Shown here: one piece after another, positions 35,978 through 57,623 of the stretch
How the letters are laid out: every line of letters starts with the position of its first letter
How positions within the stretch are numbered: the stretch's first letter is position 1
Source of the DNA: Sedimenticolaceae bacterium
Lineage (GTDB): Bacteria > Pseudomonadota > Gammaproteobacteria > Chromatiales > Chromatiaceae
Length of the DNA stretch: 64,000 bases
Assembly (NCBI GenBank): GCA_050304615.1
Contig: JBNLDW010000002.1
Coordinates: forward strand, 1,630 to 65,629
Reading direction: 5' to 3'
Program-made: the position numbers and the translations under genes
The notes under the pieces: model-generated
Seen by the model: the letters and a program-made list of their open reading frames with translations, nothing else
Database searches by the model: none
What the model was told of the DNA's origin: nothing

Positions 35978-36012
35978 GAATCACCTCCAAACAATAGTGG
36001 GCAGATCTCACC

Positions 36013-42513: not shown

Positions 42514-43510
42514 GAAAGTTAAGGAGCTAAAGCATCAACTCAAGGCTCAGAACAAAACTATTCGAGTGTTATCGGAACGGCTGGAACAACAGATATCCGA
42601 CGATATTACCGGATTTGCGCTGTTTGAACAGAATATTTCATTAGAAAACGTTGTTTCTGCACGCACCCAAGAGCTAGAACGCACCCTGTCAGAACTAAAG
42701 GCAGCCCAGGCAGAACTGCTTCATGCGCAAAAGCAACAGGCCATTGGCCAGTTAGCATCAGGCATAGCACACGAGATCAACACACCGATCCAATACGTGG
42801 GAGATAATATAAAGTTTTTAACTGACTCTTTTGACGAACTACTCCAAACCATAATGTCATGTAAAAGTATGGCTACAGAAGGGAATGATACTGAAGATAT
42901 GGATTACCTTATAAAAGAGGTGCCTCGAGCCCTTAAAGAGAGCGCAGAGGGGGTTGCATATATAGCCAGCATTGTTAGCGCAATGAAGGAGTTCGCCCAT
43001 CCCAGCGGCGATGCTATGCAGCAGATAGATATACATCAACTTATTCAGACAACCATTGCAATATCTCGTAACGAATGGAAACACTCCGCAAATCTAGAGA
43101 CCAATTTCGACCCGGAGCTACCGCCAGTCGATGGCCTTAAGGATGAGCTAGGCCAGGTCTTGCTTAATCTTATAGTAAACGCCGCTCACGCCATTGAAGA
43201 TAACAAAGAGCTGGGTGAGTCGGAGGGGATGATCCGCATCACCACCAGACGTGATAGTGACTGGATCGAAATCCAGGTTGAAGATAACGGTTGCGGCATA
43301 CCAGAGGCACTACGCCAAAAGATATTTGAGCCTTTCTTTACTACCAAAGATGTTGGGCGTGGCTCTGGACAGGGGTTAGCTATCGTGTACAGCATAGTAA
43401 CTGACAAGCATCACGGAAAACTGAGCGTTCAATCAGAACAGGGGAAAGGTTCTATTTTCATTGTGCGCGTGCCTTTGGTAAACACAAAAGCTGAGGCCGC
43501 CTCGCATTAA
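42506..43510 (+). CDS. Cytoplasmic histidine kinase (coiled coil + HisKA-like + HATPase_c)
   Basis: H-box GIAHEINTPIQY, N-box LLNLIVNAAHAI, G1 VEDNGCGIP, G2 GSGQGLAI. The start overlaps the FIST stop (ATGAGTGA). Confidence 0.85.
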   Translation: MSEKVKELKHQLKAQNKTIRVLSERLEQQISDDITGFALFEQNISLENVVSARTQELERTLSELKAAQAELLHAQKQQAIGQLASGIAHEINTPIQYVGDNIKFLTDSFDELLQTIMSCKSMATEGNDTEDMDYLIKEVPRALKESAEGVAYIASIVSAMKEFAHPSGDAMQQIDIHQLIQTTIAISRNEWKHSANLETNFDPELPPVDGLKDELGQVLLNLIVNAAHAIEDNKELGESEGMIRITTRRDSDWIEIQVEDNGCGIPEALRQKIFEPFFTTKDVGRGSGQGLAIVYSIVTDKHHGKLSVQSEQGKGSIFIVRVPLVNTKAEAASH

Positions 43511-43882
43511 AGCAATTAAAAGAGGTTATTTTAATACCCTAGCAAAGCCTTTTTCCTATACAGTCAAAGCCCCCCTAGTCAAGAAGATGCGTCCACACAA
43601 TCGCCCCGGGTGACCGTACTTCTTTAGTGCGCGAAAAAATGGCTAGAGGCCAGCACAATTTAGCGACAATAGTACAGAGCGCGCCCCTTCAGTACACGTG
43701 AATGTTTTGCTGGAGAGGGATGAAAACGGCTTGAATCATGCCTATACTCAGGATGTATATATGGAAGCACGATCGGCAGCTTGATCAAACCTAACGTTAG
43801 GGACGCCATTCTACTTCCGCTCAATCCAAATCACTAGCGAGGCCATGTGTTACTAAATGAAGGCAGTTACAGTAGTACAGGA

Positions 43883-45520: not shown

Positions 45521-46214
45521 TAAACTGAAAGAAGCTAAATTATGCCTGACCCCGGCCTTCGCCATGGTCTCCCATGACATTAAAAACTCCCTCGGTATTT
45601 TACTGAAGCATATCGGCGCGATCTCGGAACAGTGCAATGTTGAGGTGGGCGGCATAAAGCAAGAGTGCGCAAACATGGAGTATGAGGTCAGACGCATTAA
45701 CAGTAATCTGGTAAAGATGCTTACCCTATTTAAGGTCGAAGAAGGTAACTACATGCTAAATGTTGACGCCCATTCCATGAGCGAGTTTCTCGAAGAAAGC
45801 ATGCTGGAACATGGTGATCTTGCCAAGCAAAAAGGGATTGGTTATGAGATTGATTGTAGTGAAGAGCTGTATTGGTATTTTGACCGAAACCTGATGAGCG
45901 GAGTGGTGAGCAACGCCATCAACAACGCCATGCGTTACACCAATGATTGGCTGAGGATTTCGGCACAAACCACGAATGAGGGACTAGCAATTACCGTAGA
46001 GGATAACGGCGATGGCTTTCCCAAATCGATGCTAGAAAAACAGGGAGAGTTTTTTCGTCCAGAATCTGGGTTTCTCAATAACAATACCGGCCTTGGTCTC
46101 TATTTCACGCAGGTGGTGCTAGATCTTCACCAGCACGATGACAAACAGGGAAAGGTGACGCTCTCCAACGGAGGAGTACTGGGGGGCGGTAGTTGCAGTA
46201 TCCTGCTACCGTGA
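45510..46214 (+). CDS. Sensor-less histidine kinase-like protein
   Basis: H-box MVSHDIKNSL, N-box VSNAINNAMRY, VEDNGDGFP, NTGLGLYF. TTG start after aaaggag, overlapping the upstream stop. An alternative ATG is at 45564. Confidence 0.7.
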   Translation: MQNNKLKEAKLCLTPAFAMVSHDIKNSLGILLKHIGAISEQCNVEVGGIKQECANMEYEVRRINSNLVKMLTLFKVEEGNYMLNVDAHSMSEFLEESMLEHGDLAKQKGIGYEIDCSEELYWYFDRNLMSGVVSNAINNAMRYTNDWLRISAQTTNEGLAITVEDNGDGFPKSMLEKQGEFFRPESGFLNNNTGLGLYFTQVVLDLHQHDDKQGKVTLSNGGVLGGGSCSILLP

Positions 46215-46366: not shown

Positions 46367-46876
46367 CTAAACCCCACCCCCCCGGTGTACTATTTCATAA
46401 TAGAGCTTCTCCAACTCTGTTTTGTGCTGGGTCTCTTCGTCAGCCAGAAAGCTGAATAGATCCTTGATCGGGCCAGGACTGGTTGACTCTGCCAGGGCAC
46501 GGTACTGCTCCATGGCGATCTGTTCGCGCCCCAAGGCATACTGCAACACCGCCTGATCATCTACCGTATCTCCCAGTTCAGGTAGCTGAATCGCATCGGA
46601 AAAGTGGCTGTCACTGGCCGGGGTCTCGACCAACCCCTTGAGCTGCTCCTCAAGGTCAGGACGGGCGCGGAGCTCGGTAAACAACGTAAAGTGGCGCTGC
46701 TCCTCCTCCGCTAGCTCTTCCGCTAGGTAACGCATCTGTTTGTTTACCTGCGGTGCCAGAGCAACATAAAAGTCGCGGGCGGTACGCTCAAACTCAATAG
46801 CCACCTCCAAGATCTCGGCCAGAGTTTTCTTGGACCGCAGCTTGTTGTAACCATTGGATGCGCCTTCATCGCTCAT
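46367..46876 (-). CDS. Ferritin-like / rubrerythrin-like di-iron-type four-helix protein
   Basis: Two E...E..H-type segments: AIEFERTARDFY...EEEQRH and ALGREQIAMEQY...DEETQH. Lies 11 nt after the preceding gene. Confidence 0.6.
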   Translation of the reverse strand: MSDEGASNGYNKLRSKKTLAEILEVAIEFERTARDFYVALAPQVNKQMRYLAEELAEEEQRHFTLFTELRARPDLEEQLKGLVETPASDSHFSDAIQLPELGDTVDDQAVLQYALGREQIAMEQYRALAESTSPGPIKDLFSFLADEETQHKTELEKLYYEIVHRGGGV

Positions 46877-46887
46877 GCCGTACCCTC

Positions 46888-48684
46888 CTACTTTCTGTTT
46901 CGGCCACTCAGGTAGCTATCGATACTGGCTGCTGTCCGGTGACCGTCCGCCACCGCATGGACCACATCCGGACCCTTGACGCAATCACCGGCCGCCCATA
47001 ACCATGGCTCTGAGGTGCGCCCGTCACCGTCTACCGTAATACGGCCCCGGTTCCACTCCAGTTTTTCCGTCAGCTCTTCACCCAGCAGACCTACGTCAGA
47101 CATCTGGCCGATGGCCTCGATCACCATGTCACCGGCGTGGAACTGCTCATCGGTTTCATCGTAACTAGGCGCGAACTGGCCCTGCTCATCAAAGATAGAC
47201 TTTACATGCCAGGTTATCAGTCCGGTGACCCTGCCGTCCTCAATGGTTATCTGCTGTGGTCCGCGGGCATCCAGGATCTTAATACCTTCCTCCCCGCACT
47301 CCTTCACCTCTTCCGGATCTGCCAGGAAGTGAGCGAAGTCTTCCAGCGCGGTAACCGTAAGCTTGACCTCGCCGTGCTGCTGTTGCTGCAACCGTGCCAT
47401 ACTGCGGGCGATGTCCATGGCCACGTTACCGCCACCGATCACCACTATTTGGCGAGGTGCCTCGATGGGCTCTCCATCGGTGATGGCGCGCAATAGATCC
47501 ACCGACTTGGGAACATCTTTGTGCTCCGAACCAGGTATCCTGGTGGAACGTCCCAGGTGCAAACCGATAGAGAGTAGCACCGCATCGTACTCTTGGCGCA
47601 ACTGGTCAATGGAGACATCCACACCAACTTGGCTGTTGCAGTGGATCTCCACACCCATGGCGCGGATGACATCTACATCACGGTCGATCATATCGTAAGG
47701 CAGACGGTATTCAGGAATACCGTAACGGGTCATACCGCCGGGGTGTGCCCGCGCCTCATGCACCACCACCTTATGGCCTTTCCGCGCCAGATCGTAGGCG
47801 GTGGTCAGGCCTGCAGGCCCGGCGCCGATGATGGCAATCCTCTTGCCTGTAGCCGGGGCAGGAGCACCAACGATCTCATTGTATTGTTCGTAGGGCACCT
47901 GGTCGGTAATGTGTCGTTTGAGCCAGCGGATGGCGAGCGGATCACCCTCGTGATGCACGGCGCAGACGGTCTCACACTTGTGGGTACATACCCGTCCGCA
48001 CACCTCGGAGAATGGATTGGTCTCGTACAGCAGTTCCAGTCCGTGCTGGTAGTCGCCATCACGCACCGCGGCGATGTAATCGGGGATCGACATATGGGCT
48101 GGGCAGGTGGCAATACAGAGACCACAGGAGACGCAACGGTCCGCCTCAAGCTGGGCCTGCTCCACCGAGTAGCCATGCACGATCTCGTCGAAGGAGCCGA
48201 TACGCACATCAGGCTCCAGTTCACCCATGTGCTCCCTAGTCATTGGAGTTAGGTGATAGCCATCAGGCCGTCTGTAGCCCAGCTTGGCATCGTCCCAAGA
48301 CTTCTTATCGACGCCGGGGATAAAACGGAAGACGTCGGGATCTGCATCCACCCACTTATACTCGTTGGACATGGTGAGCGAGCCGGTCATGCAGATATCC
48401 ACACACAGTGCACACCAGCAGCAACGGCCGTAATCGATACGGGGACGCAGGCCGGAGTCACCCTGCTCCGTTGGAATCCCATCCACCGGCACCATATCAA
48501 TAGCCGCATTCTGACAGATCGCCTCACAGCTGCCGCAACCGATGCACTTATCAACATCGTTCTGGTGGAAGCCACGATAGCGCGCGGCGCCAGGACGCTC
48601 ATTTAGCGGATCGCGGATGGTAACCGGATCGCGAAATAGATTCTTCCACGCGGTAAAGGGTGAGAGGACGTCGCGTATACTCAT
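46888..48684 (-). CDS. Fusion of a NuoI/MbxN-like 2x[4Fe-4S] ferredoxin with a GltD/SudA-like FAD/NAD(P)H oxidoreductase
   Basis: N-terminus has CIGCGSCEAIC and CCWCALCVDIC. Then CVSCGLCIATCP...TNPFSEVCGRVCTHKCETVC, IAIIGAGPAGL (FAD) and VIGGGNVAMD (NAD(P)H). Confidence 0.85.
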   Translation of the reverse strand: MSIRDVLSPFTAWKNLFRDPVTIRDPLNERPGAARYRGFHQNDVDKCIGCGSCEAICQNAAIDMVPVDGIPTEQGDSGLRPRIDYGRCCWCALCVDICMTGSLTMSNEYKWVDADPDVFRFIPGVDKKSWDDAKLGYRRPDGYHLTPMTREHMGELEPDVRIGSFDEIVHGYSVEQAQLEADRCVSCGLCIATCPAHMSIPDYIAAVRDGDYQHGLELLYETNPFSEVCGRVCTHKCETVCAVHHEGDPLAIRWLKRHITDQVPYEQYNEIVGAPAPATGKRIAIIGAGPAGLTTAYDLARKGHKVVVHEARAHPGGMTRYGIPEYRLPYDMIDRDVDVIRAMGVEIHCNSQVGVDVSIDQLRQEYDAVLLSIGLHLGRSTRIPGSEHKDVPKSVDLLRAITDGEPIEAPRQIVVIGGGNVAMDIARSMARLQQQQHGEVKLTVTALEDFAHFLADPEEVKECGEEGIKILDARGPQQITIEDGRVTGLITWHVKSIFDEQGQFAPSYDETDEQFHAGDMVIEAIGQMSDVGLLGEELTEKLEWNRGRITVDGDGRTSEPWLWAAGDCVKGPDVVHAVADGHRTAASIDSYLSGRNRK

Positions 48685-48686
48685 GC

Positions 48687-49862
48687 CTACCTCTCAATCT
48701 CTGGTGGATAGGTGTGCAGTGAAACCATCAGCGCAGCCACATCAGAGATATTTACGTTGACGATCAGCCGCTCCAACAAGGCCATGGCATGGGTGTATGA
48801 TGGTCCACGCACGTTGACTCGACGCGGATAGCCGCTGCCATCGGTAACCAGATAGTAGCCGTATTCGCCGCGTGAGCACTCGCCACGGATATAGGTCTCG
48901 CCACGCGGGATCTTCCAGTGCAACACATTGGGGATCTTGGCCATCAATGGCCCCTCGTTAGGCATCTTGGCCAGTATCTGCCGTATCAGATCTACCGACA
49001 TCAGTAGATCGCGACGGCGCACATCGGCCCGCGCATATACATCCGACTCGGTTGCCACCACCGGCTCAAACTCCAGTTCTGGATAGACCAGATAGGGCTG
49101 ATCCTTGCGCACATCCTTGGCTACGCCGGCGGCACGAGCGACGGGGCCGGTAACACCGTAGGAATCGATCAGTTGCGGATCGACATAACCGAGACCGACA
49201 GTACGCTTCTTAAACACGGCGTTGCAGTACATCACCTCATAGACATCCTTGAGGGTACTCTCGATCTCCTGCAGGGTCTTCTCCATACGTTTTGCAAAGC
49301 CCTGCGGCAGGCCGTCGCGCACCCCGCCAGGAAGAATGAACATATGGTAGATGCGCGCACCGGTCAGCTCTTCGAAACGATCCAGCATCAGATCACGCAC
49401 ATATGTTGTCCACTGACCAATCACACCCTGACCTAAGGCACCAGCCTGACCACCAAGGTACATCAGATAGCTGTTGACCCGTCCCATCTCCAGGATGAGC
49501 GTGCGTATCCAGTCGGCGCGCTCGGGCGACTTGATCCCCGCCAGTTCCTCCACCGCCGCAGCATAGCAGTACTCATTGAAATCCGGCTCCGGCACACAGA
49601 CGCGACAGACTATGGGGAAACACTGGATGAAGGTACGCCGCTCCATCAATTTTTCGAAGCCGCGGTGCAGGTAGCCAACGTGGGTCTTACCTGCGACCAC
49701 TTCATCGCCACAGACGGTAAGCTCCAGTGACATGTTACCGGTGATGCCAGGGTGTTGTGGTCCCTGCCACAGTTTTAGGTATTTGCCCGACGTCAAATCT
49801 ATATCAAGGCTGCCATCAGCCTTTTTCTGCGGGTATTGATTACGTTCCGGTTGATACGTCAT
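48687..49862 (-). CDS. NuoD / [NiFe]-hydrogenase large-subunit-like protein (MbxL-like) lacking C-terminal Ni-Fe ligands
   Basis: GPQHPG..G...L.L...G..V......VGYLHRGFEKL.E. Contains CRVC where hydrogenases have CGxC, and a C-terminus ...SLHTYPPEIER with no Cys. Start trimmed to 49862. Confidence 0.85.
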   Translation of the reverse strand: MTYQPERNQYPQKKADGSLDIDLTSGKYLKLWQGPQHPGITGNMSLELTVCGDEVVAGKTHVGYLHRGFEKLMERRTFIQCFPIVCRVCVPEPDFNEYCYAAAVEELAGIKSPERADWIRTLILEMGRVNSYLMYLGGQAGALGQGVIGQWTTYVRDLMLDRFEELTGARIYHMFILPGGVRDGLPQGFAKRMEKTLQEIESTLKDVYEVMYCNAVFKKRTVGLGYVDPQLIDSYGVTGPVARAAGVAKDVRKDQPYLVYPELEFEPVVATESDVYARADVRRRDLLMSVDLIRQILAKMPNEGPLMAKIPNVLHWKIPRGETYIRGECSRGEYGYYLVTDGSGYPRRVNVRGPSYTHAMALLERLIVNVNISDVAALMVSLHTYPPEIER

Positions 49863-49863
49863 G

Positions 49864-50397
49864 TTATGCACCATCCGGATAGAGTTGTTCTTGCATGTAC
49901 TCCGCCGGATCTTTGCTCTCCCGGCCAGGCCGGTGACCATATGTCTCCTCGGAGTACTTCAAGGTATCGAAGTCACGGCGGTAGGGTGGAATGTCATTCC
50001 AGCCTTCAAGGATGAACTCTTCATCCACCCCGGGGCTATCGGGAAAGTCGATACCAAACATCTCGCGCAATTCGCGTTGATAGGTGGCAGCGGTTGGCCA
50101 GATATCGTGGATACTCTCCATAGTGGCGCTGTCACGAGACAGCATCACCCGCAGGCCAATATCCCGGCCACCCTCCCTGTTGGAGAGCAGATAGGTCAAC
50201 TGAAACTGACCATCTTCAATCCAGTCCACGGCGGTCAATAGAACTAGGTGGCTGTACCCCTCTTGGTCACGCAGATGCAGCAGTAACGAACGCAGCTGTG
50301 CCTGCGCTACGGTAATAAAGGCAAGATCGTCCCGCTGCTCGGTTAGTTCACCGAGTTGAAATCGATCCTTTAGCTGTCTATAGAGTGTTTGCATCAT
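49864..50397 (-). CDS. NuoC (30 kDa)-like subunit (MbxK-like)
   Basis: ...W..A..YQRELREMFGI.F...P... pattern. 177 aa. Confidence 0.75.
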   Translation of the reverse strand: MMQTLYRQLKDRFQLGELTEQRDDLAFITVAQAQLRSLLLHLRDQEGYSHLVLLTAVDWIEDGQFQLTYLLSNREGGRDIGLRVMLSRDSATMESIHDIWPTAATYQRELREMFGIDFPDSPGVDEEFILEGWNDIPPYRRDFDTLKYSEETYGHRPGRESKDPAEYMQEQLYPDGA

Positions 50398-50416
50398 TTA
50401 TATTTTCTATCCGACA

Positions 50417-51058
50417 TCACCAGTTATAATCCGGCATATCCCAATCGTGAATTACCTTTTTTTGGTTCGCCTTGTACCAGTCGAATTCCTCGGCATATTT
50501 ATTGGCACCTTCGCCCTTGCCTGCCCGGATGATCTTCTTCAAATCTTCAAACCCAGCCAGCAACGCCTCGGGGCGCGGCATACAACCGGCGATGTATAGA
50601 TCTACCGGCAGGTAGTCGTCCAGCCGCTTGATGGTGTTGTAGGCGTCCCAGTACATCCCGCCGTTGATGGTGCAAGAGCCAAGGCCAATTACATATTTCG
50701 GGCCCTGCATCTGTTCATAAGAGCGGATCGCCCGCTTCAGCGTCTTCACCGAGAGATAGCCGGAGATGATAAACAGGTTCGCCTGACGCGGGGTTGGGCG
50801 CCACTGCACACCAAAGCGATAGGCATCAAAGCGCGGCGTCATCAATGGGCGCATCTCAATAGCGCCACAGCCGGTACCAAATCCGAGGATCCAGAGAGAT
50901 TCGGAGCGGGCCCAGTTGAACAGCTGCTCAACGATCTTCTGATAGGCGGCAGGCTGCACCGTAGGCGGTGCCTCGCAGTAATAGTCCCGTAGCGGTTCGA
51001 CCTCAAACTCGATCCCGTCGGGCCCTTTTACGATACGTTTTTCAAGCTCTTCTTTCAT
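50417..51058 (-). CDS. NuoB (20 kDa, PSST)-like subunit (MbxJ-like)
   Basis: SLWILGFGTGCGAIEM, PRQANLFIISG, LGSCTINGG, IAGCMPRPE. Start trimmed to 51058. Confidence 0.85.
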   Translation of the reverse strand: MKEELEKRIVKGPDGIEFEVEPLRDYYCEAPPTVQPAAYQKIVEQLFNWARSESLWILGFGTGCGAIEMRPLMTPRFDAYRFGVQWRPTPRQANLFIISGYLSVKTLKRAIRSYEQMQGPKYVIGLGSCTINGGMYWDAYNTIKRLDDYLPVDLYIAGCMPRPEALLAGFEDLKKIIRAGKGEGANKYAEEFDWYKANQKKVIHDWDMPDYNW

Positions 51059-51062
51059 AACC

Positions 51063-51968
51063 TTACACCAGCACGATAGAGACAATGCCCAACGGCACTG
51101 CCCAGATCAAAAACCAACGGATCGACTGCTCCACCCTAAAGCGTGGAAATGCCACACCGACAAACAGCGAGACCATGTAGATCAGAAATACCTTGAGGAA
51201 AAATAGCGGCCAACTCGTCGCCCCACCAAAAAACAGATTCATATAGATCACAATCTTAGCGATGGGGAAGATCACCCGGTTGGTCTGCATCAGCGCCAGA
51301 TAGGAGGAGTGATACTCGGTGGGCGGTCCAATAGGAATCTCCTGGGGCGCCAATACCACATCGAAGGGCGGACGCATCATAGAGCCGAGGAACGACAGCA
51401 TCGCTGCGGCCACCGCAAAGGGGTTGGTAAACAGTGTCCAGTTGAGCATACCGCCCTGCTGCGCAGCCACGATCTCGGTGATGGAGAGGGTCTGGTACTG
51501 CAGCGCCACCGAAAAGATCGCGAGGGCAAAGGGCAGTTCGGCTGCAGTCGTCTGTGATAGACCACGACTTACACCTATGGCCGCATAGGGATGGCCACTC
51601 TCACCCGCCCCCAGCGCCATACCCAATGCACCAAAAAATACGAAATAGAGGGCCAGGATCAGGTCGCCGGCAAAGGAGAGGTTAGAGAACATCTCAGAGC
51701 CGTAGATAGTAGGCACAAACAGCAGCAGACCGACACCACCGGTCAACCGAAAGACCGGGCCGAGGTAGAACATCACACCGTGGGTAATAGAGCTGCGCAG
51801 TGCATAATTCTTTATCAGATCGATGTAGTTTTGATAGATCGGTATACCATGTCGGCGCCCTACCCTCGCCCCAATCTTTTGCATCAGCGCAGCCAGCAAC
51901 AGCCCGAAGTTGATCACAATGAACAGGGTCAGAAGCGAATAGGGAATCTTGATCCACTCAAATTGCAT
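51063..51968 (-). CDS. NuoH / MbxM / HycD-like membrane subunit
   Basis: Eight hydrophobic segments, PFDVV.AP.EI..GP.TEY.S, PRFRVEQ. Start trimmed to 51968. Confidence 0.8.
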   Translation of the reverse strand: MQFEWIKIPYSLLTLFIVINFGLLLAALMQKIGARVGRRHGIPIYQNYIDLIKNYALRSSITHGVMFYLGPVFRLTGGVGLLLFVPTIYGSEMFSNLSFAGDLILALYFVFFGALGMALGAGESGHPYAAIGVSRGLSQTTAAELPFALAIFSVALQYQTLSITEIVAAQQGGMLNWTLFTNPFAVAAAMLSFLGSMMRPPFDVVLAPQEIPIGPPTEYHSSYLALMQTNRVIFPIAKIVIYMNLFFGGATSWPLFFLKVFLIYMVSLFVGVAFPRFRVEQSIRWFLIWAVPLGIVSIVLV

Positions 51969-51970
51969 CA

Positions 51971-54900
51971 CTAGAACCCCACCTTTAGTAGATACACCAC
52001 AACCACAAAGGCCAGCAGGTGAACGGCATAGGTCTGGCCATTGCCACAATAAAGCCGCCGCAACACATCGGAGAGACTATGCAGAAAATCGGTCTGCGCC
52101 TCCCAGAAACGGGTGACCAAAGGCTGAGTGAGAAAACCCAGCGCCTTGCGATAGGGGGCGAAGAAGTTCCAGGCAAAGTGGGTGGTCTCCGGACGGAATG
52201 GCCGCTCGGCAGCATAGACAATATTGAACTGTTTCACCCGCTGCGCCTTGCGGTTAACAAACAGCAACCAGGCCAGCAAGGTAGCGAAGATCACACCGAC
52301 CACCAGCATGATAGAGACGGGACTCCAGTAGCCGAAGTCGCTAGTGATGGTAAGCCCCTCCCAATTGAGCGCACCTTCCGGAAAAAAGCGGCTTAGATAG
52401 CCGTCCACATGGCGCAGCACCAGACCAGGAACCACTGCCACCACCATAAGTATGGCGACGTAGATCATCTGCGGTAGCACCAGCCAGAAAGGCGCCTCTT
52501 TCACCCGCCGGTGTTCATCCTTCATCTGCCCGAGAAACACGGTATGAATCAGCCGGAATAGATAGAGGAAGGCGATAGGCCCGGAGAGAAAAATAACAAT
52601 CATCGGCAGCCGGTACTCGGCAGTCATGATGGCGTTGTAGAAGATCCAACGCCCACCAAAACCAGACAGTGGCGGTACACCGGAAACTGCAATGATACCG
52701 ATCAGGACAGCAATAAAAGAGAGCGGCATCAGGGTGATCAAACCACCCATGCGGTACATGTCACGAGTACCGGTACGCTTGGCTATACCGCCTACAGAGA
52801 GAAACAGCATCGACTTGTATACATAGTGGTTGATCACGAACATCAACGCCATCAACCAGCCGAGATGATTCATCATGGCCAACCCGAACAGGGCGTACCC
52901 CATCTGACCAATAGAGGAGTAGGCAAGCAACCGCTTGGCATCCTCTTGAAAGATCGCCAGCAGATTACCAATCAGCGCCGACAGGGCACCGACCCAGAGC
53001 ATCAGGTGGGTGAGCTCTACCCCATAGAACTCCTGCTTGCGCATATTCATCAGCAATACGAACAGCCCAAACAAGCCCGCCTTGAGCAGGATACCGGATA
53101 CCATGGGTGAGACATCCGTCTCCGCCTCGCTGTGGGCACCAGGCAGCCAGATATGGAAGCCGATGGCGGCAGTCTTGGTCATAAAACCAATGGCAAGCAG
53201 TAGGAAGACCCAACCCGCCAGCGGCTGCGCCACCTGGCTAAGCGCCTGCAGAGGAAAATCCATAACGCCCTGGCTGGCCAGGCCAAATCCCGCCAGAATC
53301 AACATGGCCCCACCGAGAGAGAAAACACTGTAAGAGAGCGCGTGCGGTTCGGAGTGTTTGCCCCGCAAGATCAGAAAATAGGAGCCTACTGTCAATAACT
53401 CCCAGGCGGCAAAGAAGGTGAAGGAGTCAACCGCGGTAACAAGCATGGCTAGACCTGCGTACATAAGCATGGCCGAAGGATAGAAACCGACCCTGCGACC
53501 ATGCGCGGAGTAGCTTGCCAGCAGAATCAGCGCGCCCCCGAGGAGGATAACGGCACCAAATATAACCTGCAATGGATCGTATCCGGGGTAGCAAACAACA
53601 AACCATGCGACCATCCCGACAATAGCTATGGTGTTCTTAACCCAAGCCGGCAACCACTCTATCAGCAGAAAGCCCAAGGCAAACAACAGCGGCAACGCAT
53701 GTAGCAGATTACCGTGGCTGGAGAGACCGCCCCACAGATAGGCCGCTACCCAGCCTGCCAGTACAGCCACATAGACCACATCCACCTTCTGCGGGAGACG
53801 CGCCGCCGGCTCTCCTGTTTGATCCCGCTTGATGATATAGCCAAACCAACGGAACAGATAACCGGCCTCGAGCAGCGTACCAAACAGGATAAGTCCAAGC
53901 AGCGCGATGCGGTCATTGGACGCAAGGATATGGACCAGATCCCACTTGGCATAGAAGCCGGGAAATGGGGGCAGCCCAATCAACATGGCGATAAAGGTGA
54001 CAAAGGCGAAGATGAGCAACGGACGGCCGCGCAAGACGCTCCATGCGGTCAACTCACGCTCAAACACCAACCCAGAGAGCCAGAACAGCCCAGCCTTGGA
54101 TATGGCATGGGCCACCAGAATACCGCCGGCGATAAACAGATAACTATCACCGAGAATTTCGCGCTGACCCAATATCGTCAACACCAAACCTATCTGTGCA
54201 ATTGAAGAGTAGCCTAGCAGACGCCGGTCATTGGTTTGTGACAGGGCAAACAGGTTGGCGCCAACGAAGCTGACAATACCGATACCAGTCGCCACCGGTA
54301 GCCACTGTGCACCACCGATTAGCAACAGTTTATCCACCGCAAACAGGGCCGCAGATGCCGAGGCTGCTGAGAGTATGGCGGAAAGTGCTGGATGGGCCGA
54401 CTCGTAGATATCCAGTACCCAGCCATTCGCTGGAAATGGTTTGATCTCGGCGATAATGGCGATGAACATCAGGAAAAAGACTAGAGCCCCATCCTTAAAC
54501 AGATCCTGGTGCGCAGCGGCCATGCCATCTATATTCAGGGTGCCGGTCGCGTGATAGGAGAAGATGATGCCAATCAACAGCAGCATCGCAATCACCTGCG
54601 ACGCAATCATATATTTGAAACCGGCACTCAGTGCCTGTCTGGCCAAGGAGAGCAAGACTAGGCCACCGGTAGCGATCACCGTCAACTCAAAGAATACAAA
54701 CAGGTTGAACATATCGCGGGTAAGAACAATGCCGCACAGGGCCATAGCAAAGACAAGCAGCACCGCCATGGCGCGCCGCCCCAGCTTTAACATAGTCTCC
54801 TTCAGGTGAAACGCCGAGAGCAGTGCAGTCATACTAATTAGCAGGATCAGTACCGCTTCGGCTAATCCCATACGCAGATTGATCGCAAAAGGCGGTGCGG

Positions 54901-55096
54901 TACCAGCAGTAAAGATATCAACGGTGGTGGCGCCGCCCCAAGCCAGAGATGAGACACTGCTTGCCGCCATCCAGCTCATCGAGGTGAGGGCCGCCAACAT
55001 CACCCAATAGGAGATGGCCCGCCACTCGTCCCGCAACAGACCAAGCAGAAATGCCGCGCCTAATCCGACCGCTATGAAGTAAATGGCACTCACCAT
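51971..55096 (-). CDS. Fused double antiporter-like subunit (two NuoL/M/N-MrpD-type modules; MbxH+H'-like)
   Basis: 1041 aa with two Proton_antipo_M-like cores. The first contains ...EIKPFPANGWVLDIYESAHPALSAILSA. The second contains ...KTAAIGFHIWLPGAHSEAETDVSPMVSGILLKAG. Confidence 0.8.
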   Translation of the reverse strand: MVSAIYFIAVGLGAAFLLGLLRDEWRAISYWVMLAALTSMSWMAASSVSSLAWGGATTVDIFTAGTAPPFAINLRMGLAEAVLILLISMTALLSAFHLKETMLKLGRRAMAVLLVFAMALCGIVLTRDMFNLFVFFELTVIATGGLVLLSLARQALSAGFKYMIASQVIAMLLLIGIIFSYHATGTLNIDGMAAAHQDLFKDGALVFFLMFIAIIAEIKPFPANGWVLDIYESAHPALSAILSAASASAALFAVDKLLLIGGAQWLPVATGIGIVSFVGANLFALSQTNDRRLLGYSSIAQIGLVLTILGQREILGDSYLFIAGGILVAHAISKAGLFWLSGLVFERELTAWSVLRGRPLLIFAFVTFIAMLIGLPPFPGFYAKWDLVHILASNDRIALLGLILFGTLLEAGYLFRWFGYIIKRDQTGEPAARLPQKVDVVYVAVLAGWVAAYLWGGLSSHGNLLHALPLLFALGFLLIEWLPAWVKNTIAIVGMVAWFVVCYPGYDPLQVIFGAVILLGGALILLASYSAHGRRVGFYPSAMLMYAGLAMLVTAVDSFTFFAAWELLTVGSYFLILRGKHSEPHALSYSVFSLGGAMLILAGFGLASQGVMDFPLQALSQVAQPLAGWVFLLLAIGFMTKTAAIGFHIWLPGAHSEAETDVSPMVSGILLKAGLFGLFVLLMNMRKQEFYGVELTHLMLWVGALSALIGNLLAIFQEDAKRLLAYSSIGQMGYALFGLAMMNHLGWLMALMFVINHYVYKSMLFLSVGGIAKRTGTRDMYRMGGLITLMPLSFIAVLIGIIAVSGVPPLSGFGGRWIFYNAIMTAEYRLPMIVIFLSGPIAFLYLFRLIHTVFLGQMKDEHRRVKEAPFWLVLPQMIYVAILMVVAVVPGLVLRHVDGYLSRFFPEGALNWEGLTITSDFGYWSPVSIMLVVGVIFATLLAWLLFVNRKAQRVKQFNIVYAAERPFRPETTHFAWNFFAPYRKALGFLTQPLVTRFWEAQTDFLHSLSDVLRRLYCGNGQTYAVHLLAFVVVVYLLKVGF

Positions 55097-55449
55097 TTCA
55101 GCTCCGTATACTTCGCAATATCTAGGCTGCCCTTGGTCTCATATAGCTTGTAGACAAAGGCAAGCATCAGCGCCGTCGTACCTACGCCGATAACGATGGC
55201 GGTAAGCACCAGCGCCTGCGGGACCGGATCGATGATGCGGGTTACCGCCTCAGATACCGGGACCGCCGCATCCAGGATTGGTGCGGTACGGCCACGCATG
55301 TACCCCACGGAGACCAGAACCAGGTTGACCCCAGCGTTGGCCACAGTAAAAGAGACAATCATGCGTAAAATATTACTATTGGAGAGCGCACCGTATATGC
55401 CGATAAGGATCAGGATAAAGCCGGTTGCCATAGAAATATGCGCAATCAT
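55090..55449 (-). CDS. MrpC/MnhC (NuoK-like) subunit
   Basis: 119 aa, 3 TM segments, DPVPQALVLTAIVIG. Confidence 0.8.
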   Translation of the reverse strand: MIAHISMATGFILILIGIYGALSNSNILRMIVSFTVANAGVNLVLVSVGYMRGRTAPILDAAVPVSEAVTRIIDPVPQALVLTAIVIGVGTTALMLAFVYKLYETKGSLDIAKYTELKW

Positions 55450-56144
55450 GATCCCTCCGCTTCTGAAAGATCGACTAACATGGAGCTAAATTCAGCGCCC
55501 ACCTTAAGACCGATAAAGGAGTAGATTACGGGCATGGCACCGGCGGAAAACAGTTCGCCTAGAGTGCCGATAGGTAGAATTCTGTTGTCCAGAAAACCGG
55601 ATGCGAAAAAGATACCGAGCACACCGATAGTGACAAAGACCAATCCAGAAATAGACTCGAGCACATAGATCAGGCGGTGACTGAAATGTCGTAGCGGATT
55701 AGTCAATAATAGCAATAGAGTCGCCGACGCCAGGATGGCACCACCCTGAAAACCACCGCCCGGGGTTAGGTGACCATTGACGAAGATGTAGACACCGAGC
55801 AACATAATCAACGGCACCAGAATGCGCGTGCCTGTGGTCAGTAGTTCGCCCACCGGCGTGAGCTGGCGTTTTACCGCCCCGCGCCTGCGACCTCTGGCCA
55901 GAACCAAGCCGACGATGGCGGCAGAGAGAAACAGTACCGTTACCTCTCCCAGGGTATCAAGGCCGCGGTAAGTGACGATGATGGCGGTAACAATATTGGC
56001 CGCTCCCAGGTCGGTTGCAGTGTGCTCGGCATAGTAGCGGCCTGTGAGGTTCAGCTCCGCATCTGGCTGGTAGCCAGTTAGTAAATGCCAGAAGGCGGCG
56101 CCAAGCACCAACACCAGCAGCAGGAGTATAAAACGCTTAATCAA
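55446..56144 (-). CDS. MrpB/MnhB-domain subunit
   Basis: GAANIVTAIIVTYRGLDTLGEVTV. Probable TTG start at 56144 overlapping the upstream stop. The ORF-track ATG is at 56198. Confidence 0.75.
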   Translation of the reverse strand: MIKRFILLLLVLVLGAAFWHLLTGYQPDAELNLTGRYYAEHTATDLGAANIVTAIIVTYRGLDTLGEVTVLFLSAAIVGLVLARGRRRGAVKRQLTPVGELLTTGTRILVPLIMLLGVYIFVNGHLTPGGGFQGGAILASATLLLLLTNPLRHFSHRLIYVLESISGLVFVTIGVLGIFFASGFLDNRILPIGTLGELFSAGAMPVIYSFIGLKVGAEFSSMLVDLSEAEGS

Positions 56145-56415
56145 GCTCGTTTTCCTCGTTATTATGTTCGTGCATGCCGCGCACGCGACCGAGTACAAAG
56201 AAGAATAGGAATGTGGTCAAACCGCTGCCGATGGCGGCCTCGGTCATCGCCACGTCTGGCGCAGCCAGGATAACGAACAACACCGAGGCGAAGAGAGTTA
56301 CCAGTCCGCCTGCCAGTATGGCCACCGATAGGCCCTTGGTGCGAATAGCCACCAGGGCCACGACTATCGTAGCCAGCGCCAACAACATGGTCATGACGGT
56401 GATCATACTGCTCAT
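56137..56415 (-). CDS. DUF4040 (MbhD / MrpA C-terminal-like) subunit
   Basis: 92 aa, 3 TM segments, APDVAMTEAAIGSGL hallmark. Confidence 0.7.
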   Translation of the reverse strand: MSSMITVMTMLLALATIVVALVAIRTKGLSVAILAGGLVTLFASVLFVILAAPDVAMTEAAIGSGLTTFLFFFVLGRVRGMHEHNNEENELD

Positions 56416-56759
56416 TGCGGTGGTTCTCCGCTGTCCTCTGCCAAATGGTCCACTATGGTCAGATCACACTTCTTGGTGCCAATGCGATGTGCAGCACGCG
56501 CCAATACGTGTGACGACAGCGGGTTAGTAGACAGAACAAATAGCGCAATCAACAGCAGCTTAGGCCACCACTCAAGTTGCAGGCAAGCGAGACCTATCAA
56601 GGTCAACAAGGTGCCGAGGGTGGTGGTCTTGGTGGCGGCCTGGATGCGGTTGAATACATCTGGCATGCGCACCAGCCCCACACCACCTAAAAACAGAAAC
56701 ACGGCTCCGAATAACAACAATAGTCCACCAAATAAATTAAGAGGGGTATCGGCAAACAT
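56412..56759 (-). CDS. MrpG/MnhG subunit
   Basis: GLVRMPDVFNRIQAATKTTTLG. Confidence 0.8.
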   Translation of the reverse strand: MFADTPLNLFGGLLLLFGAVFLFLGGVGLVRMPDVFNRIQAATKTTTLGTLLTLIGLACLQLEWWPKLLLIALFVLSTNPLSSHVLARAAHRIGTKKCDLTIVDHLAEDSGEPPQ

Positions 56760-57019
56760 TACAGCCCCCGCTCCAGATAGCGCGCCACGGCGATGACGCC
56801 AAGAAAGGAGAGAAATGCATAGACCAACGCCACATCAAGATAGATATTACGACCCTCGACCAAGGCCACCAGGATAATGCCAATGACTGAGAGGATGGTA
56901 AGCACGTCGAATGCCACCACCCGGTCCGGCGCCGTTGGACCGGTAAAAAAGCGCCACAGGGCAAGCAGGAAGGAAACTCCAGCCAGCGTAGCCGACAGGA
57001 AAACCAGCGCATCAACCAT
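56759..57019 (-). CDS. MrpF/MnhF subunit
   Basis: 86 aa, ...RFFTGPTAPDRVVAFD. Confidence 0.75.
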   Translation of the reverse strand: MVDALVFLSATLAGVSFLLALWRFFTGPTAPDRVVAFDVLTILSVIGIILVALVEGRNIYLDVALVYAFLSFLGVIAVARYLERGL

Positions 57020-57509
57020 ACATCACCTCAAGATAGCGCTCGAAACCGGCAACGATGGTAGCCGTTGCAACCTCAACATCATCTGATTCAACAGTTACCC
57101 AGTGGACGTAGAGCCATTCATCAATTAACTCAATGGTCAGCGTGCCCGGTGTCATGGTGATCGCATTGGCCAACAACTCCCGCCCCACTGGACTCTTAAG
57201 CTTGGTGCGTACCTTGACGATACCAGGATTCACCGGCAAAGATGGCGATATTATAATCGCGGCCATCCGCAGGTTTGATACAATCAATTCTTTGAAGAAA
57301 TAGAAAACGAAGATCACCGCGGCGCCTATGGCGCGAGGCGTGGCATTGAAGCCAGAGAGGACACTAATGCCGCGTTTATAAACCAGCGCAATCAGAAAAG
57401 AGGTGATAGCACCCACTATTAGTACATCAGGGGCCAAAGAAGCATTTAGCAGCAGCCAAAACAGGAGCAGGACTACGAACAACCGAATGAAATGTCGCGT
57501 TTTCTGCAT
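57012..57509 (-). CDS. MrpE/MnhE subunit
   Basis: 165 aa. N-terminal TM pair, ...WLLLN.S......VG, MTPGTL. Confidence 0.7.
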   Translation of the reverse strand: MQKTRHFIRLFVVLLLFWLLLNASLAPDVLIVGAITSFLIALVYKRGISVLSGFNATPRAIGAAVIFVFYFFKELIVSNLRMAAIIISPSLPVNPGIVKVRTKLKSPVGRELLANAITMTPGTLTIELIDEWLYVHWVTVESDDVEVATATIVAGFERYLEVMYG

Positions 57510-57623
57510 CCAACCCCCCCGTAGATAACTCAGCCTAATGGAAATATGTACTCACATAGTTTCCCCGGACATAAAGCTTTAAGTTGATCGTATTCGCGGT
57601 ATGAAAGCGATGACAAATATCAA

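What the first reader, a model, noticed from the sequence alone, without database searches (positions are those of the whole stretch)
46367..57509. Bacterial Mrp-Mbx/Mbs-type respiratory-like complex with an NAD(P)H-flavoprotein fusion
Thirteen same-strand genes have overlaps or gaps of at most ~19 nt. The order is MrpE, MrpF, MrpG, DUF4040 (MbhD-like), MrpB, MrpC, a double antiporter-like protein, then NuoH-, NuoB-, NuoC-, NuoD- and NuoI-like. This matches the mbxABCDFGHH'MJKLN order known from Thermococcales MBX/MBS, where the NuoH homologue comes before the NuoB homologue and there are two H modules. It does not match the mbh, hyc/hyf or nuo orders. Three features differ from mbx. H and H' are fused into one 1041-aa protein. 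The N subunit is fused to a GltD/SudA-type FAD/NAD(P)H module. A ferritin-like gene is appended. I saw no NuoEFG and no hyp or maturation-protease genes in the window. Together this suggests an ion-translocating complex that couples NAD(P)(H), rather than free ferredoxin, to an unidentified acceptor. Sulfane sulfur is one candidate. The complex could run in reverse, using ion-motive force to drive NAD(P)+ reduction, in a chemolithotroph.
Basis: partly seen in the sequence, partly recalled or inferred. Interest (0 to 1): 0.88.

Follow-up and report, generated by a model that had tools for sequence, protein, structure and literature searches.

The report
Bacterial Mbx/MBS-type NADH-linked ion pump operon
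This is an ordinary member of a widespread bacterial relative of the archaeal sulfur-reducing MBS/Mbx respiratory complex, with a built-in NADH-binding flavoprotein module; the layout was described in 2015, but what it reduces or oxidises has never been tested.

Summary
Thirteen minus-strand genes (57509 to 46367) overlap or lie at most 19 nt apart. Their order is MrpE-F-G, MbhD, MbsE-like, MrpC, fused H-H', then NuoH-, B-, C-, D-like, a NuoI-GltD fusion and a diiron ferritin-like gene. Every subunit I tested has P. furiosus MBS (6U8Y) as its closest solved relative.

It is not a hydrogenase: two of the four NiFe cysteine positions are Glu in 77 of 77 relatives. It lacks the complex I quinone ligands. 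Its NuoB-like subunit keeps only three cluster cysteines, like the catalytic cluster of MBS.

The novelty claim is not supported. The same 12-gene order with the NuoI-GltD fusion appears in all 80 genomes I retrieved, across about ten phyla, and in Thermosipho. NCBIfam PRK13984 spans the fusion. [quoted passage not shown]

Function is untested. My best reading is a reversible, ion-coupled NADH:sulfane-sulfur (S-S bond) oxidoreductase. The NADPH-type 'YRR' motif is replaced by 'LE' in 87 of 91 members. The ferritin-like protein looks like a real partner, since a triple fusion exists.

The parts
57012..57509 (-). MrpE / MbsA-like membrane subunit (165 aa)
   Evidence: Pfam MNHE, E=6.8e-36. First gene of the conserved order in 80 loci.
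56759..57019 (-). MrpF / MbsB-like (86 aa)
   Evidence: Pfam MrpF_PhaF, E=1.1e-18. Overlaps the MrpE gene by 8 nt.
56412..56759 (-). MrpG / MbsC-like (115 aa)
   Evidence: Pfam PhaG_MnhG_YufB, E=3.1e-26.
56137..56415 (-). MbhD / MbsD-like (92 aa)
   Evidence: Pfam MbhD, E=3.9e-15.
55446..56144 (-). MbsE-like subunit (MbhE + MnhB domains; 232 aa from the corrected start)
   Evidence: Pfam MnhB + MbhE. Best PDB hit is 6u8y_E over its full length, E=4.6e-47. Start taken from the L081 gene call.
55090..55449 (-). MrpC / NuoK-like / MbsG-like (119 aa)
   Evidence: Pfam Oxidored_q2, E=1.4e-22.
51971..55096 (-). Fused antiporter-like subunits H-H' (1041 aa)
   Evidence: Residues 6-259 match MbsH (6u8y_H) and residues 514-1034 match MbsH' (6u8y_X, E=7e-55). 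It is a single ORF of more than 950 aa in 58 of 58 complete loci. Most pump residues are conserved (E137, E217, K384; E566, K641, K672, H757, K761). The MbsH K250 position is A/G/S, and MbsH' K399 is Arg here.
51063..51968 (-). NuoH / MbsM-like membrane anchor of the peripheral arm (301 aa)
   Evidence: Pfam NADHdh. Best PDB hit 6u8y_M at 134 bits, against 53 bits for the next hit.
50417..51058 (-). NuoB / MbsJ-like subunit carrying the proximal [4Fe-4S] cluster (213 aa)
   Evidence: Best PDB hit 6u8y_J, E=1e-64, in an ungapped alignment. MbsJ C28, C93 and C123 are conserved. The non-ligand C25 is Gly here and in 67 of 68 relatives.
49864..50397 (-). NuoC / MbsK-like (177 aa)
   Evidence: Pfam Complex1_30kDa, E=7.9e-25.
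48687..49862 (-). NuoD / MbsL-like subunit, not a hydrogenase large subunit (391 aa)
   Evidence: PDB bit scores: 6u8y_L 316, Nqo4 210, MbhL 133, HycE 111. The four NiFe cysteine positions read C, E, Y, E. Positions 88 and 388 are Glu in 77 of 77 relatives. Nqo4 H38 and Y87 align to Thr and Val.
46888..48684 (-). NuoI/MbsN-like 2x[4Fe-4S] domain fused to a GltD/NfnB-type module (2x[4Fe-4S], FAD, nicotinamide-nucleotide site; 598 aa)
   Evidence: Pfam Fer4_7 + Fer4_20 + Pyr_redox_2. The N-terminus is closest to 6u8y_N; the C-terminus is closest to the GltD-like chains of 8oh5, 9bov and 9n5u and to NfnB (4ylf_B). All 16 cluster cysteines are conserved in 88-91 of 91 members. The 'YRR' motif is replaced by 'LE' in 87 of 91. 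NCBIfam PRK13984 covers residues 1-595.
46367..46876 (-). Diiron ferritin-like (rubrerythrin-family, COG1633-type) protein, 169 aa
   Evidence: Pfam Rubrerythrin, E=1.6e-12. The six ligands E30, E59, H62, E118, E148 and H151 are conserved in 29 homologues that follow the fusion gene in Proteobacteria, Spirochaetes, Marinimicrobia and Thermosipho. It is fused to the NuoI-GltD protein in P0121. Closest PDB entries are 2fzf_A and 1vjx_A, both of unknown function.
57587..57616 (-). Sigma-70-like promoter match in the 114-nt lspA-mrpE spacer (weak)
   Evidence: TTGTCA-18-TACGAT, 9 of 12 matches. The number of such matches in the region is not above the shuffled expectation, so this is only compatible with an operon start.

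Best explanation
The 13 genes encode one membrane complex of the bacterial 'Mbx-like' branch of the MBS/MBX family. These are Mrp-linked relatives of complex I and of group 4 hydrogenases.

Shown by sequence:
- There is a complete MBS-type membrane arm: an Mrp module plus two antiporter-like pump units fused into one protein.
- There is an MBS-type peripheral arm.
- The NuoD-like subunit has no Ni-Fe site and no quinone ligands.
- The NuoB-like subunit can bind its [4Fe-4S] cluster with only three cysteines.
- The N subunit carries four [4Fe-4S] sites, an FAD site and a nicotinamide-nucleotide site on one polypeptide.

Inferred:
- Electrons run NADH <-> FAD <-> 2 [4Fe-4S] (GltD part) <-> 2 [4Fe-4S] (NuoI part) <-> the three-Cys proximal cluster.
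- As in P. furiosus MBS, the free iron of that cluster would cleave or form an S-S bond (polysulfide, persulfide or another sulfane-sulfur compound). This would happen in the chamber formed by the NuoD-, NuoB- and NuoH-like subunits and the H' loop.
- That chemistry is coupled to H+/Na+ movement through H-H' and the Mrp module.
- NADH and the sulfur/sulfide couple are nearly isopotential, so the direction would depend on the ion-motive force. With a membrane potential the complex would reduce NAD+ from sulfide or sulfane sulfur. Without a respiratory acceptor it would reduce sulfur with NADH.
- The diiron ferritin-like protein is a conserved accessory subunit attached to the flavoprotein module. 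It most likely scavenges peroxide or O2, or protects or repairs the exposed clusters.

Membership of the family is near certain (about 0.95). The confidence given below is for the whole statement, including the substrate.
For: Identity:
- The gene order equals mbsA-N.
- MBS chains are the best solved relatives of the NuoD-, NuoB-, NuoH-, MbsE-, H-, H'- and NuoI-like parts, by wide margins.
- The order is conserved in 80 of 80 retrieved loci and in Thermosipho.

Catalytic site:
- In MBS the proximal cluster is held by C28, C93 and C123 of MbsJ. C25 is not a ligand, and C25, MbsL C85 and MbsL C385 are dispensable for polysulfide reduction (PMC7684303).
- Here C28, C93 and C123 are invariant while C25 is Gly in 67 of 68 relatives.
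- The MbsL C85 and C385 positions vary freely: C/A/S and Y/C.

Electron wire:
- All 16 cysteines of four clusters are conserved, and the FAD motif is invariant.

Nucleotide:
- The 'YRR' of NADPH-using NfnB, GltD and the 8oh5, 9bov and 9n5u chains aligns to 'LED' here.
- The motif is 'LE' in 87 of 91 family members, while 4 distant members keep 'YRRR'.

Physiology from the literature:
- T. maritima mbxA rises 4.4-fold on S0 (PMC9431562).
- The Endoriftia 'Mrp-Mbx' is co-expressed with the rTCA cycle and hydrogenases, not with the Calvin cycle (PMC11636981).

Ferritin-like partner:
- Its diiron ligands are conserved.
- It is translationally coupled or adjacent across several phyla.
- It is fused to the flavoprotein in P0121.
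Against: - No activity has been measured for any bacterial member, so the substrate is assigned only by analogy with one archaeal enzyme.
- Energetics (textbook midpoint potentials, my own knowledge): NADH at about -320 mV to polysulfide or S0 at about -260 to -270 mV yields only about 10-12 kJ per 2 e-. That is too little to drive two pump units forward, whereas ferredoxin gives MBS about 40 kJ. A higher-potential S-S compound or another acceptor may be the real substrate.
- The family also occurs in organisms not known for sulfur metabolism: aerobic Rhodobacterales such as Celeribacter and Tropicimonas, Rhodoferax, and many Bacteroidales.
- In 21 Bacteroidota loci a DHO_dh-like flavoprotein replaces the ferritin-like gene. 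This hints at other chemistry at the flavoprotein end.
- Some pump residues differ from MBS: the MbsH K250 position is A/G/S, and MbsH' K399 is Arg in 25 of 58 loci.
- The NADH preference rests on a motif rule, not an assay.
Confidence: 0.45

Rival explanations
1. Ion-translocating ferredoxin:NAD(P)+ oxidoreductase. This is the original MBX model, applied to the bacterial mbx-like operon by Degli Esposti (2015). Reduced ferredoxin would be oxidised and NAD(P)+ reduced at the GltD module, or the reverse would be driven by ion-motive force to make reduced ferredoxin for the rTCA cycle or nitrogenase.
For: It has been proposed in print for exactly this architecture (PMC4758237). MbsN is the ferredoxin-docking subunit in MBS (PMC7684303). 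The GltD part is closest to modules of ferredoxin-linked bifurcating enzymes (NfnB 4ylf_B and 5jca_L; the 8oh5, 9bov and 9n5u chains). The Endoriftia Mrp-Mbx is co-expressed with the ferredoxin-dependent rTCA cycle (PMC11636981).
Against: Electrons passing between ferredoxin and the FAD would bypass the NuoB-like proximal cluster and the NuoD/NuoH chamber. In all complex-I-type machines that is where redox chemistry is coupled to the membrane arm. Yet this site is the most conserved part of the operon: NuoB-like 61-90% and NuoD-like 53-87% identity across the 80 loci, with three invariant cysteines. The model also gives no role to a site-differentiated cluster. The P. furiosus enzyme on which the model was based was later shown to reduce polysulfide, not NADP+ (PMC7684303).
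Confidence: 0.13
2. The same complex and electron wire, but the acceptor at the proximal cluster is another compound of higher potential, so that NADH oxidation can drive the pumps forward. Candidates are tetrathionate or thiosulfate, an organic di- or persulfide, arsenic-sulfur species, or something not yet considered.
For: Energetics favour an acceptor more positive than S0/H2S (my own knowledge of midpoint potentials). The family is present in many non-sulfur specialists. T. maritima mbxA also responds to thiosulfate (PMC9431562). The accessory gene differs between phyla: ferritin-like or DHO_dh-like.
Against: There is no positive evidence for any specific alternative. The catalytic-site features that can be read from sequence are those of MBS.
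Confidence: 0.2
3. An alternative NADH:quinone oxidoreductase. This would be a complex I analogue in which the GltD module replaces NuoEFG and Mrp-type subunits replace NuoA/J/K/L/M/N.
For: NCBIfam names the subunits NuoD (above its cut-off), NuoB, NuoH and NuoI. It has a complete NADH-to-proximal-cluster wire and a NuoH/NuoD/NuoB module. There is no NuoEFG in the window.
Against: The quinone ligands His38 and Tyr87 of Nqo4 align to Thr and Val. The tandem-Cys motif of complex I NuoB is Gly-Cys here. All subunits are much closer to MBS than to any quinone reductase.
Confidence: 0.08
4. A group 4 membrane-bound [NiFe] hydrogenase (Mbh, Hyc/Hyf or Ech type) coupled to NAD(P)H.
For: There is homology of the NuoD- and NuoB-like subunits to hydrogenase large and small subunits.
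Against: Two of the four Ni-Fe cysteine positions are Glu in 77 of 77 relatives, and a third is Tyr in this window. MbhL and HycE are the weakest PDB matches. There are no hyp or protease genes in the window.
Confidence: 0.01

Closest known systems
[quoted passage not shown]
   Same: It has mrp genes followed by NuoH-, B-, C- and D-like genes. NuoI is replaced by, or fused to, a gltD-type flavoprotein, and the operon ends with a rubrerythrin-family gene. I verified this directly in Thermosipho melanesiensis and in 80 genomes.
   Different: Nothing essential. Compared with Thermotogae, H and H' are fused here. That fusion is the rule in the Proteobacteria and Bacteroidota clade (58 of 58).
P. 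furiosus MBS, formerly MBX: membrane-bound sulfane sulfur reductase, PDB 6U8Y (PMC7684303)
   Same: The gene order is the same. All tested subunits have MBS as their closest solved relative; by my reading of the printed alignments, the NuoD-like subunit is about half identical and the NuoB-like about 60% identical. Also shared: a three-Cys proximal cluster, loss of the Ni-Fe site, two pump units, and an MbsE-type MbhE+MnhB fusion.
   Different: MbsN is a free ferredoxin-accepting subunit, whereas here it is fused to an FAD/NADH module. The MbsJ C25 and MbsL C385 positions are lost. H and H' are fused. An extra diiron protein is present. The host is mesophilic and proteobacterial. The substrate is untested.
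GltD / NfnB / SudA-type flavoprotein modules (glutamate synthase small subunit; NfnB 4YLF and 5JCA; GltD-like chains of 8OH5, 9BOV and 9N5U)
   Same: The Fer4_20 domain has eight conserved cysteines, and the FAD and dinucleotide folds are present. E-values are 1e-64 to 1e-77.
   Different: The NADPH-type 'YRR' is replaced by 'LED'. There is no NfnA or GltB partner gene in the cluster. The module is covalently joined to a NuoI-type dicluster domain.
Respiratory complex I and Ehr (energy-converting hydrogenase-related) complexes
   Same: There is a NuoB/C/D/H/I-like module without a Ni-Fe site, joined to antiporter-like subunits.
   Different: There are no NuoEFG subunits, no quinone ligands and no tandem-Cys N2 motif. 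The membrane arm is a full Mrp set.

Membership tests
MBS/MBX (Thermococcales membrane-bound sulfane sulfur reductase) | Gene order mbsA-B-C-D-E-G-H-H'-M-J-K-L-N, with the NuoH homologue before the NuoB homologue and two H modules | tested here: met
   Searches give the order, and searches show an MbsH-like half followed by an MbsH'-like half. H and H' are fused into one ORF.
MBS/MBX (Thermococcales membrane-bound sulfane sulfur reductase) | Subunits are closer to MBS than to MBH, FHL, NDH or complex I | tested here: met
   Bit scores, MBS chain against the next best solved relative: NuoD-like 316 vs 210; NuoB-like 222 vs 130; NuoH-like 134 vs 53; MbsE-like 164 vs 66; NuoI part 81 vs 52.
MBS/MBX (Thermococcales membrane-bound sulfane sulfur reductase) | Proximal [4Fe-4S] cluster held by three cysteines only (MbsJ C28, C93, C123), in a shortened loop | tested here: met
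   The alignment to MbsJ is ungapped. The three cysteines are conserved. The C25 position is Gly here and in 67 of 68 relatives. Actual coordination is not testable with these tools.
MBS/MBX (Thermococcales membrane-bound sulfane sulfur reductase) | Large subunit has lost the Ni-Fe site (two of the four cysteines absent) | tested here: met
   Positions 88 and 388 are Glu in 77 of 77 relatives. In this window position 385 is also lost (Tyr).
MBS/MBX (Thermococcales membrane-bound sulfane sulfur reductase) | Free MbsN subunit that accepts electrons from ferredoxin | tested here: not met
   The N homologue is the N-terminal 115 residues or so of a 598-aa NuoI-GltD fusion. Use of ferredoxin cannot be tested here.
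MBS/MBX (Thermococcales membrane-bound sulfane sulfur reductase) | Polysulfide or dimethyl-trisulfide reductase activity coupled to ion translocation | not testable with these tools
   This needs enzyme assays. Only indirect transcript data exist for bacterial relatives (PMC9431562, PMC11636981).
Bacterial mbx-like operon (Degli Esposti 2015) | mrp genes + NuoH/B/C/D homologues + a gltD-type flavoprotein in place of NuoI + a terminal rubrerythrin | tested here: met
   for the window. for relatives, including Thermosipho. The description is in PMC4758237.
Group 4 [NiFe] hydrogenase | L1 (RxCGxC) and L2 (DPCxxC) cysteine motifs in the large subunit, plus hyp maturation genes | tested here: not met
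   The motifs read RVCVPE and HTYPPE. There are no Hyp or protease families among the window ORFs.
Respiratory complex I (Nuo/Nqo) | NuoEFG NADH module, quinone ligands His38/Tyr87 (Nqo4), and tandem cysteines for cluster N2 | tested here: not met
   There is no NuoE/F/G in the window. His38 aligns to Thr and Tyr87 to Val. The tandem-Cys position reads Gly-Cys.
NfnB / GltD NADPH-dependent flavoproteins | Two [4Fe-4S] sites (Fer4_20), an FAD site, an NADPH site with 'YRR', and a partner subunit (NfnA or GltB) | tested here: inconclusive
   The Fe-S and FAD motifs are met. 'YRR' is replaced by 'LED', so that feature is not met. There is no NfnA- or GltB-like gene in the cluster. It is a homologous module, not an Nfn or a glutamate synthase.

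The most novel reading that the evidence does not exclude
In sulfur-oxidising and sulfur-storing Proteobacteria this complex may be a proton- or sodium-motive-force-driven sulfide/sulfane-sulfur:NAD+ oxidoreductase. It would make NADH directly from reduced sulfur at a cost of about one to a few ions per pair of electrons. That bypasses the quinone pool and reverse complex I. Under anoxia it would run the other way, as the unidentified enzyme of NADH-dependent respiration on stored sulfur. The diiron subunit would be an integral redox partner.
Probability: 0.15. Interest if true: 0.85.

Novelty: new member of a known kind. Interest (0 to 1): 0.38.

Why it matters
The window adds nothing new in kind. 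Its cluster is one more copy of an operon found in hundreds of genomes and noted in the literature since 2015.

The family itself is still worth attention. It is a complete complex-I-type ion pump, found from Thermotogae to Proteobacteria and Bacteroidota, and its substrate has never been measured.

This analysis sharpens four sequence features. The catalytic cluster is three-Cys, as in MBS. The nucleotide motif is NADH-type. The diiron partner is conserved and sometimes fused. A DHO_dh-like partner replaces it in Bacteroidota.

Together with several cultured carriers (T. maritima, Thermosipho, Thiothrix caldifontis, Magnetospira sp. QH-2, Magnetovibrio blakemorei, Celeribacter, Prolixibacter denitrificans), these make the question directly testable. 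If the reverse, sulfide-to-NAD+ reading were true, it would change energy budgets for sulfur chemolithoautotrophs and symbionts.

Tried and rejected
- Exact look-up of the window's fusion protein in public assemblies found nothing. The nearest is a 95%-identical MAG protein (GCA_050288325.1), so the organism is only placed as a gammaproteobacterium near Sedimenticolaceae-type MAGs.
- The Schut et al. 2013 and 2016 reviews, the likeliest earlier descriptions of bacterial Mbx, are not held. The JBC 2021 review says nothing on bacterial homologues.
- Literature searches combining Mbx with names of sulfur oxidisers, iron oxidisers, magnetotactic bacteria or FCB-group taxa gave no further discussion.
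- Clustering of flanking genes over 80 loci found no conserved sulfur, nitrogenase or carbon-fixation neighbours. It found only the ferritin-like, DHO_dh-like, CBS and Crp/Fnr genes.
- The promoter and terminator scan gave counts no higher than shuffled sequence, so operon ends are defined only by gene spacing.
- I rejected the hydrogenase reading (no Ni-Fe ligands) and the complex I reading (no quinone ligands, no NuoEFG).
- I did not run structure prediction. The tool returns no coordinates, so cluster-to-cluster distances, the only informative output, could not be obtained.
- I did not build a formal NuoD phylogeny.

Full report
**The observation**

The region 46367-57509 carries 13 consecutive genes on the minus strand. 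Pfam assigns them, in transcription order, to:
- MNHE (MrpE)
- MrpF_PhaF
- PhaG_MnhG
- MbhD
- MbhE+MnhB
- Oxidored_q2 (MrpC/NuoK)
- a 1041-aa protein with two Proton_antipo_M halves
- NADHdh (NuoH)
- Oxidored_q6 (NuoB)
- Complex1_30kDa (NuoC)
- Complex1_49kDa (NuoD)
- a 598-aa protein with a NuoI-type dicluster domain followed by Fer4_20 and Pyr_redox_2
- a 169-aa Rubrerythrin-family protein

The mechanical ORF list over-extends four genes. I took the gene calls of a 95%-identical, fully syntenic relative (L081, GCA_050288325.1). The starts then fall at 56144, 51968, 51058 and 49862.

Upstream on the same strand lie lspA, ileS, ribF and murJ. These are housekeeping genes, separated from the cluster by a 114-nt spacer with a weak promoter-like match. 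Downstream, on the other strand, lies a set of sensor-kinase, response-regulator and FIST genes. None of the ORFs of at least 150 aa in the window belongs to a NuoE/F/G, Hyp or hydrogenase-protease family.

**What it is related to**

Each subunit I compared with the PDB has the P. furiosus MBS complex (6U8Y) as its best solved relative, by a wide margin:
- NuoD-like: MbsL 316 bits, Nqo4 210, MbhL 133, HycE 111
- NuoB-like: MbsJ 222 bits, NdhK 130, MbhJ 92
- NuoH-like: MbsM 134 bits, next hit 53
- MbhE+MnhB protein: MbsE over its whole length
- N-terminus of the 598-aa protein: MbsN
- 1041-aa protein: N-terminal half to MbsH, C-terminal half to MbsH'

The order is therefore mbsA-B-C-D-E-G-(H-H')-M-J-K-L-N. 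No solved structure of a bacterial member turned up in the 2026 PDB copy.

**The catalytic end**

The four Ni-Fe cysteine positions of hydrogenase large subunits read Cys, Glu, Tyr, Glu in the window. Across 77 relatives, the second and fourth positions are always Glu. The other two vary: C/A/S and Y/C. Hydrogen chemistry is excluded.

The two quinone ligands of T. thermophilus Nqo4 (His38, Tyr87) align to Thr and Val.

In MBS the proximal [4Fe-4S] cluster is bound by only three cysteines of MbsJ (C28, C93, C123). C25 is too far away to bind. C25, MbsL C85 and MbsL C385 can all be mutated without loss of polysulfide reduction, and the free iron is proposed to cleave the S-S bond (PMC7684303). 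The window's NuoB-like protein aligns to MbsJ without gaps. It keeps the three ligands and has Gly at the C25 position. The same holds in 67 of 68 relatives.

So the pattern of conservation in the bacterial family follows the MBS mutagenesis closely. What is dispensable in MBS is variable or lost, and what is essential is invariant.

**The electron-input end**

The 598-aa protein carries four complete four-cysteine motifs: C47/50/53/57, C89/91/94/98, C184/187/190/194 and C229/233/237/241. They are conserved in 88-91 of 91 family members. It also has an invariant GAGPAGL FAD motif and a second dinucleotide fold.

Its C-terminal 440 residues are most similar to the GltD-like domains of the large Fe-S flavoproteins in 8OH5, 9BOV and 9N5U, to NfnB (4YLF, 5JCA) and to GltD. 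In all of those, the strand after GGGNTAMD ends in 'YRR'. By my own knowledge, this is the usual 2'-phosphate site of NADPH-dependent members. The window has 'LED' at that place. Of 91 family members, 87 have 'LE' and four distant ones keep 'YRRR'. I infer that NADH rather than NADPH is the usual partner. This is a motif-based inference, not a measurement.

**The membrane arm**

Most residues of the MBS proton-pump axes are conserved in all 58 full-length H-H' proteins:
- H half: Glu137, Glu217, His330, Lys334, Lys384
- H' half: Glu566, Lys641, His648, Lys672, His757, Lys761

There are two exceptions. The MbsH K250 position is A/G/S throughout. MbsH' K399 is Arg in the window and in 25 of 58 loci. 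The pump may therefore differ in stoichiometry from MBS, but I cannot test this.

**How common it is**

A search of 5.8 billion proteins found thousands of homologues. The 120 best are all full-length fusions, 71-95% identical. They come from Ca. Kentron, Ca. Thiodiazotropha, Gallionella, Sideroxyarcus, Rhodoferax, Thiohalocapsa, Magnetospira, Magnetovibrio, Magnetococcales and Varunaivibrio.

The 80 loci kept all encode the full-length fusion. They span:
- Alpha-, Beta- and Gammaproteobacteria and Magnetococcales
- Bacteroidota, Chlorobiota and Neomarinimicrobiota
- Spirochaetes, Cloacimonadota, Aminicenantes, Fermentibacteraceae and a deltaproteobacterium

In every locus long enough, the 12 genes from MrpE to NuoI-GltD are in the same order. 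H-H' is a single ORF in 58 of 58 complete cases.

In the library clustered at 50% identity, the full-length fusion forms roughly a dozen clusters. One of them is Thermosipho melanesiensis. There H and H' are separate genes, while the NuoI-GltD fusion (616 aa) and a following ferritin-like gene (167 aa) are present. So the N-GltD fusion and the ferritin-like gene appear ancestral to the bacterial family, and the H-H' fusion appears derived.

NCBIfam already has a 611-position model, PRK13984 'putative oxidoreductase'. It covers the whole fusion at 905 bits, just under its cut-off of 946.

**The ferritin-like gene**

It is more than an appended stress gene:
- A Rubrerythrin-family ORF follows the fusion gene in the proteobacterial loci.
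- One also follows, overlapping by 4 nt, in Marinimicrobia, Spirochaetes and Cloacimonadota loci, and in Thermosipho.
- Its six diiron ligands are conserved in 29 sequences.
- In one lineage it is fused to the C-terminus of the NuoI-GltD protein. That protein is P0121, 764 aa, seen in two assemblies.
- Its closest solved relatives are two structural-genomics proteins of unknown function, 2FZF and TM1526.

In 21 Bacteroidota loci a DHO_dh-like flavoprotein takes its place.

**What the literature already says**

[quoted passage not shown] He also states that the operon often terminates with rubrerythrin. He interprets the complex as a ferredoxin:NAD(P)+ oxidoreductase.

For T. maritima, mbxA rises 4.4-fold after S0 addition, and the complex is proposed to be a sulfur reductase (PMC9431562). 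In the Riftia symbiont, a 'putative Mrp-Mbx complex' is co-expressed with the rTCA cycle, hydrogenases and a V-type ATPase rather than with the Calvin cycle. Its function is listed as unknown (PMC11636981). I found no purification, assay or structure of a bacterial member.

**Mechanism**

The sequence-supported parts are the wire (FAD, four clusters, three-Cys proximal cluster), the absence of hydrogen and quinone sites, and a complete ion-translocating arm.

The most economical inference is an NADH-linked version of the MBS reaction on an S-S bond. The main difficulty is energetic (my own knowledge of midpoint potentials). NADH and S0 or polysulfide differ by only about 50-60 mV, which is far less than the ferredoxin-driven MBS reaction.

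That leaves two options. The other is a different, more oxidising substrate.

The ferredoxin:NAD(P)+ model is less attractive because it bypasses the proximal cluster and chamber. These are the best-conserved parts of the operon.

**Verdict**

The finding is real and correctly recognised as Mbx/MBS-type. It is a routine member of a large, already described but biochemically uncharacterised family. Nothing in the window shows that the host is a chemolithotroph. The ankyrin-repeat and RTX genes would be compatible with a host-associated lifestyle.

Noticed in passing
L039 6967-7956 and 20 other Bacteroidota loci (L033-L079): A 329-aa DHO_dh-like (PF01180) flavoprotein gene follows the NuoI-GltD gene after 12 nt, in place of the ferritin-like gene. 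The GltD + PyrD-like pairing recalls dihydropyrimidine dehydrogenase (PreT/PreA). This suggests a different reaction at the flavoprotein end in that phylum.
   Followed up: partly
L082 10001-12295 (GCA_054029235.1) and L083 (SRR33956859): This is a triple fusion of NuoI, GltD and Rubrerythrin (P0121, 764 aa), in a cluster where H (479 aa) and H' (620 aa) are separate genes. It suggests that the ferritin-like protein binds the flavoprotein module.
   Followed up: partly
window 51971-55096 (H-H' protein), residues 247 and 816: The position of MbsH K250 (central pump lysine) is Ala here and A/G/S in 58 relatives. MbsH' K399 is Arg here and in 25 of 58 relatives, and Lys in 33. The number of working pump channels may differ from MBS.
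   Followed up: partly
window 10414-18601: This stretch holds a 1325-aa RTX/haemolysin-type calcium-binding protein with a HlyD-family protein and a C39-peptidase ABC exporter (type I secretion). GC falls to 0.42 around 14-16 kb, which may indicate acquired DNA.
   Followed up: no
window 45-713 and 21755-22315: Two ankyrin-repeat proteins. These are unusual in free-living bacteria and common in host-associated ones.
   Followed up: no
window 41395-46214 (+ strand): A FIST-domain protein, a histidine kinase, a response regulator with TPR repeats and a second HATPase protein lie next to the operon. The arrangement is conserved in the 95%-identical relative L081 but not in the other loci. They could be local regulators.
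   Followed up: partly
window 33308-35427: A di-haem cytochrome c peroxidase/MauG-family gene is followed by a Crp/Fnr-type regulator. Crp/Fnr genes also sit upstream of the mbx-like cluster in 7 other loci.
   Followed up: no
window 28918-30434: A tandem pair of DUF1538 membrane proteins of unknown function.
   Followed up: no
window 36001-38000: A local GC dip (0.437) with strong negative GC skew (-0.21). The stretch contains NUDIX and pyridoxamine-phosphate-oxidase-like genes.
   Followed up: no
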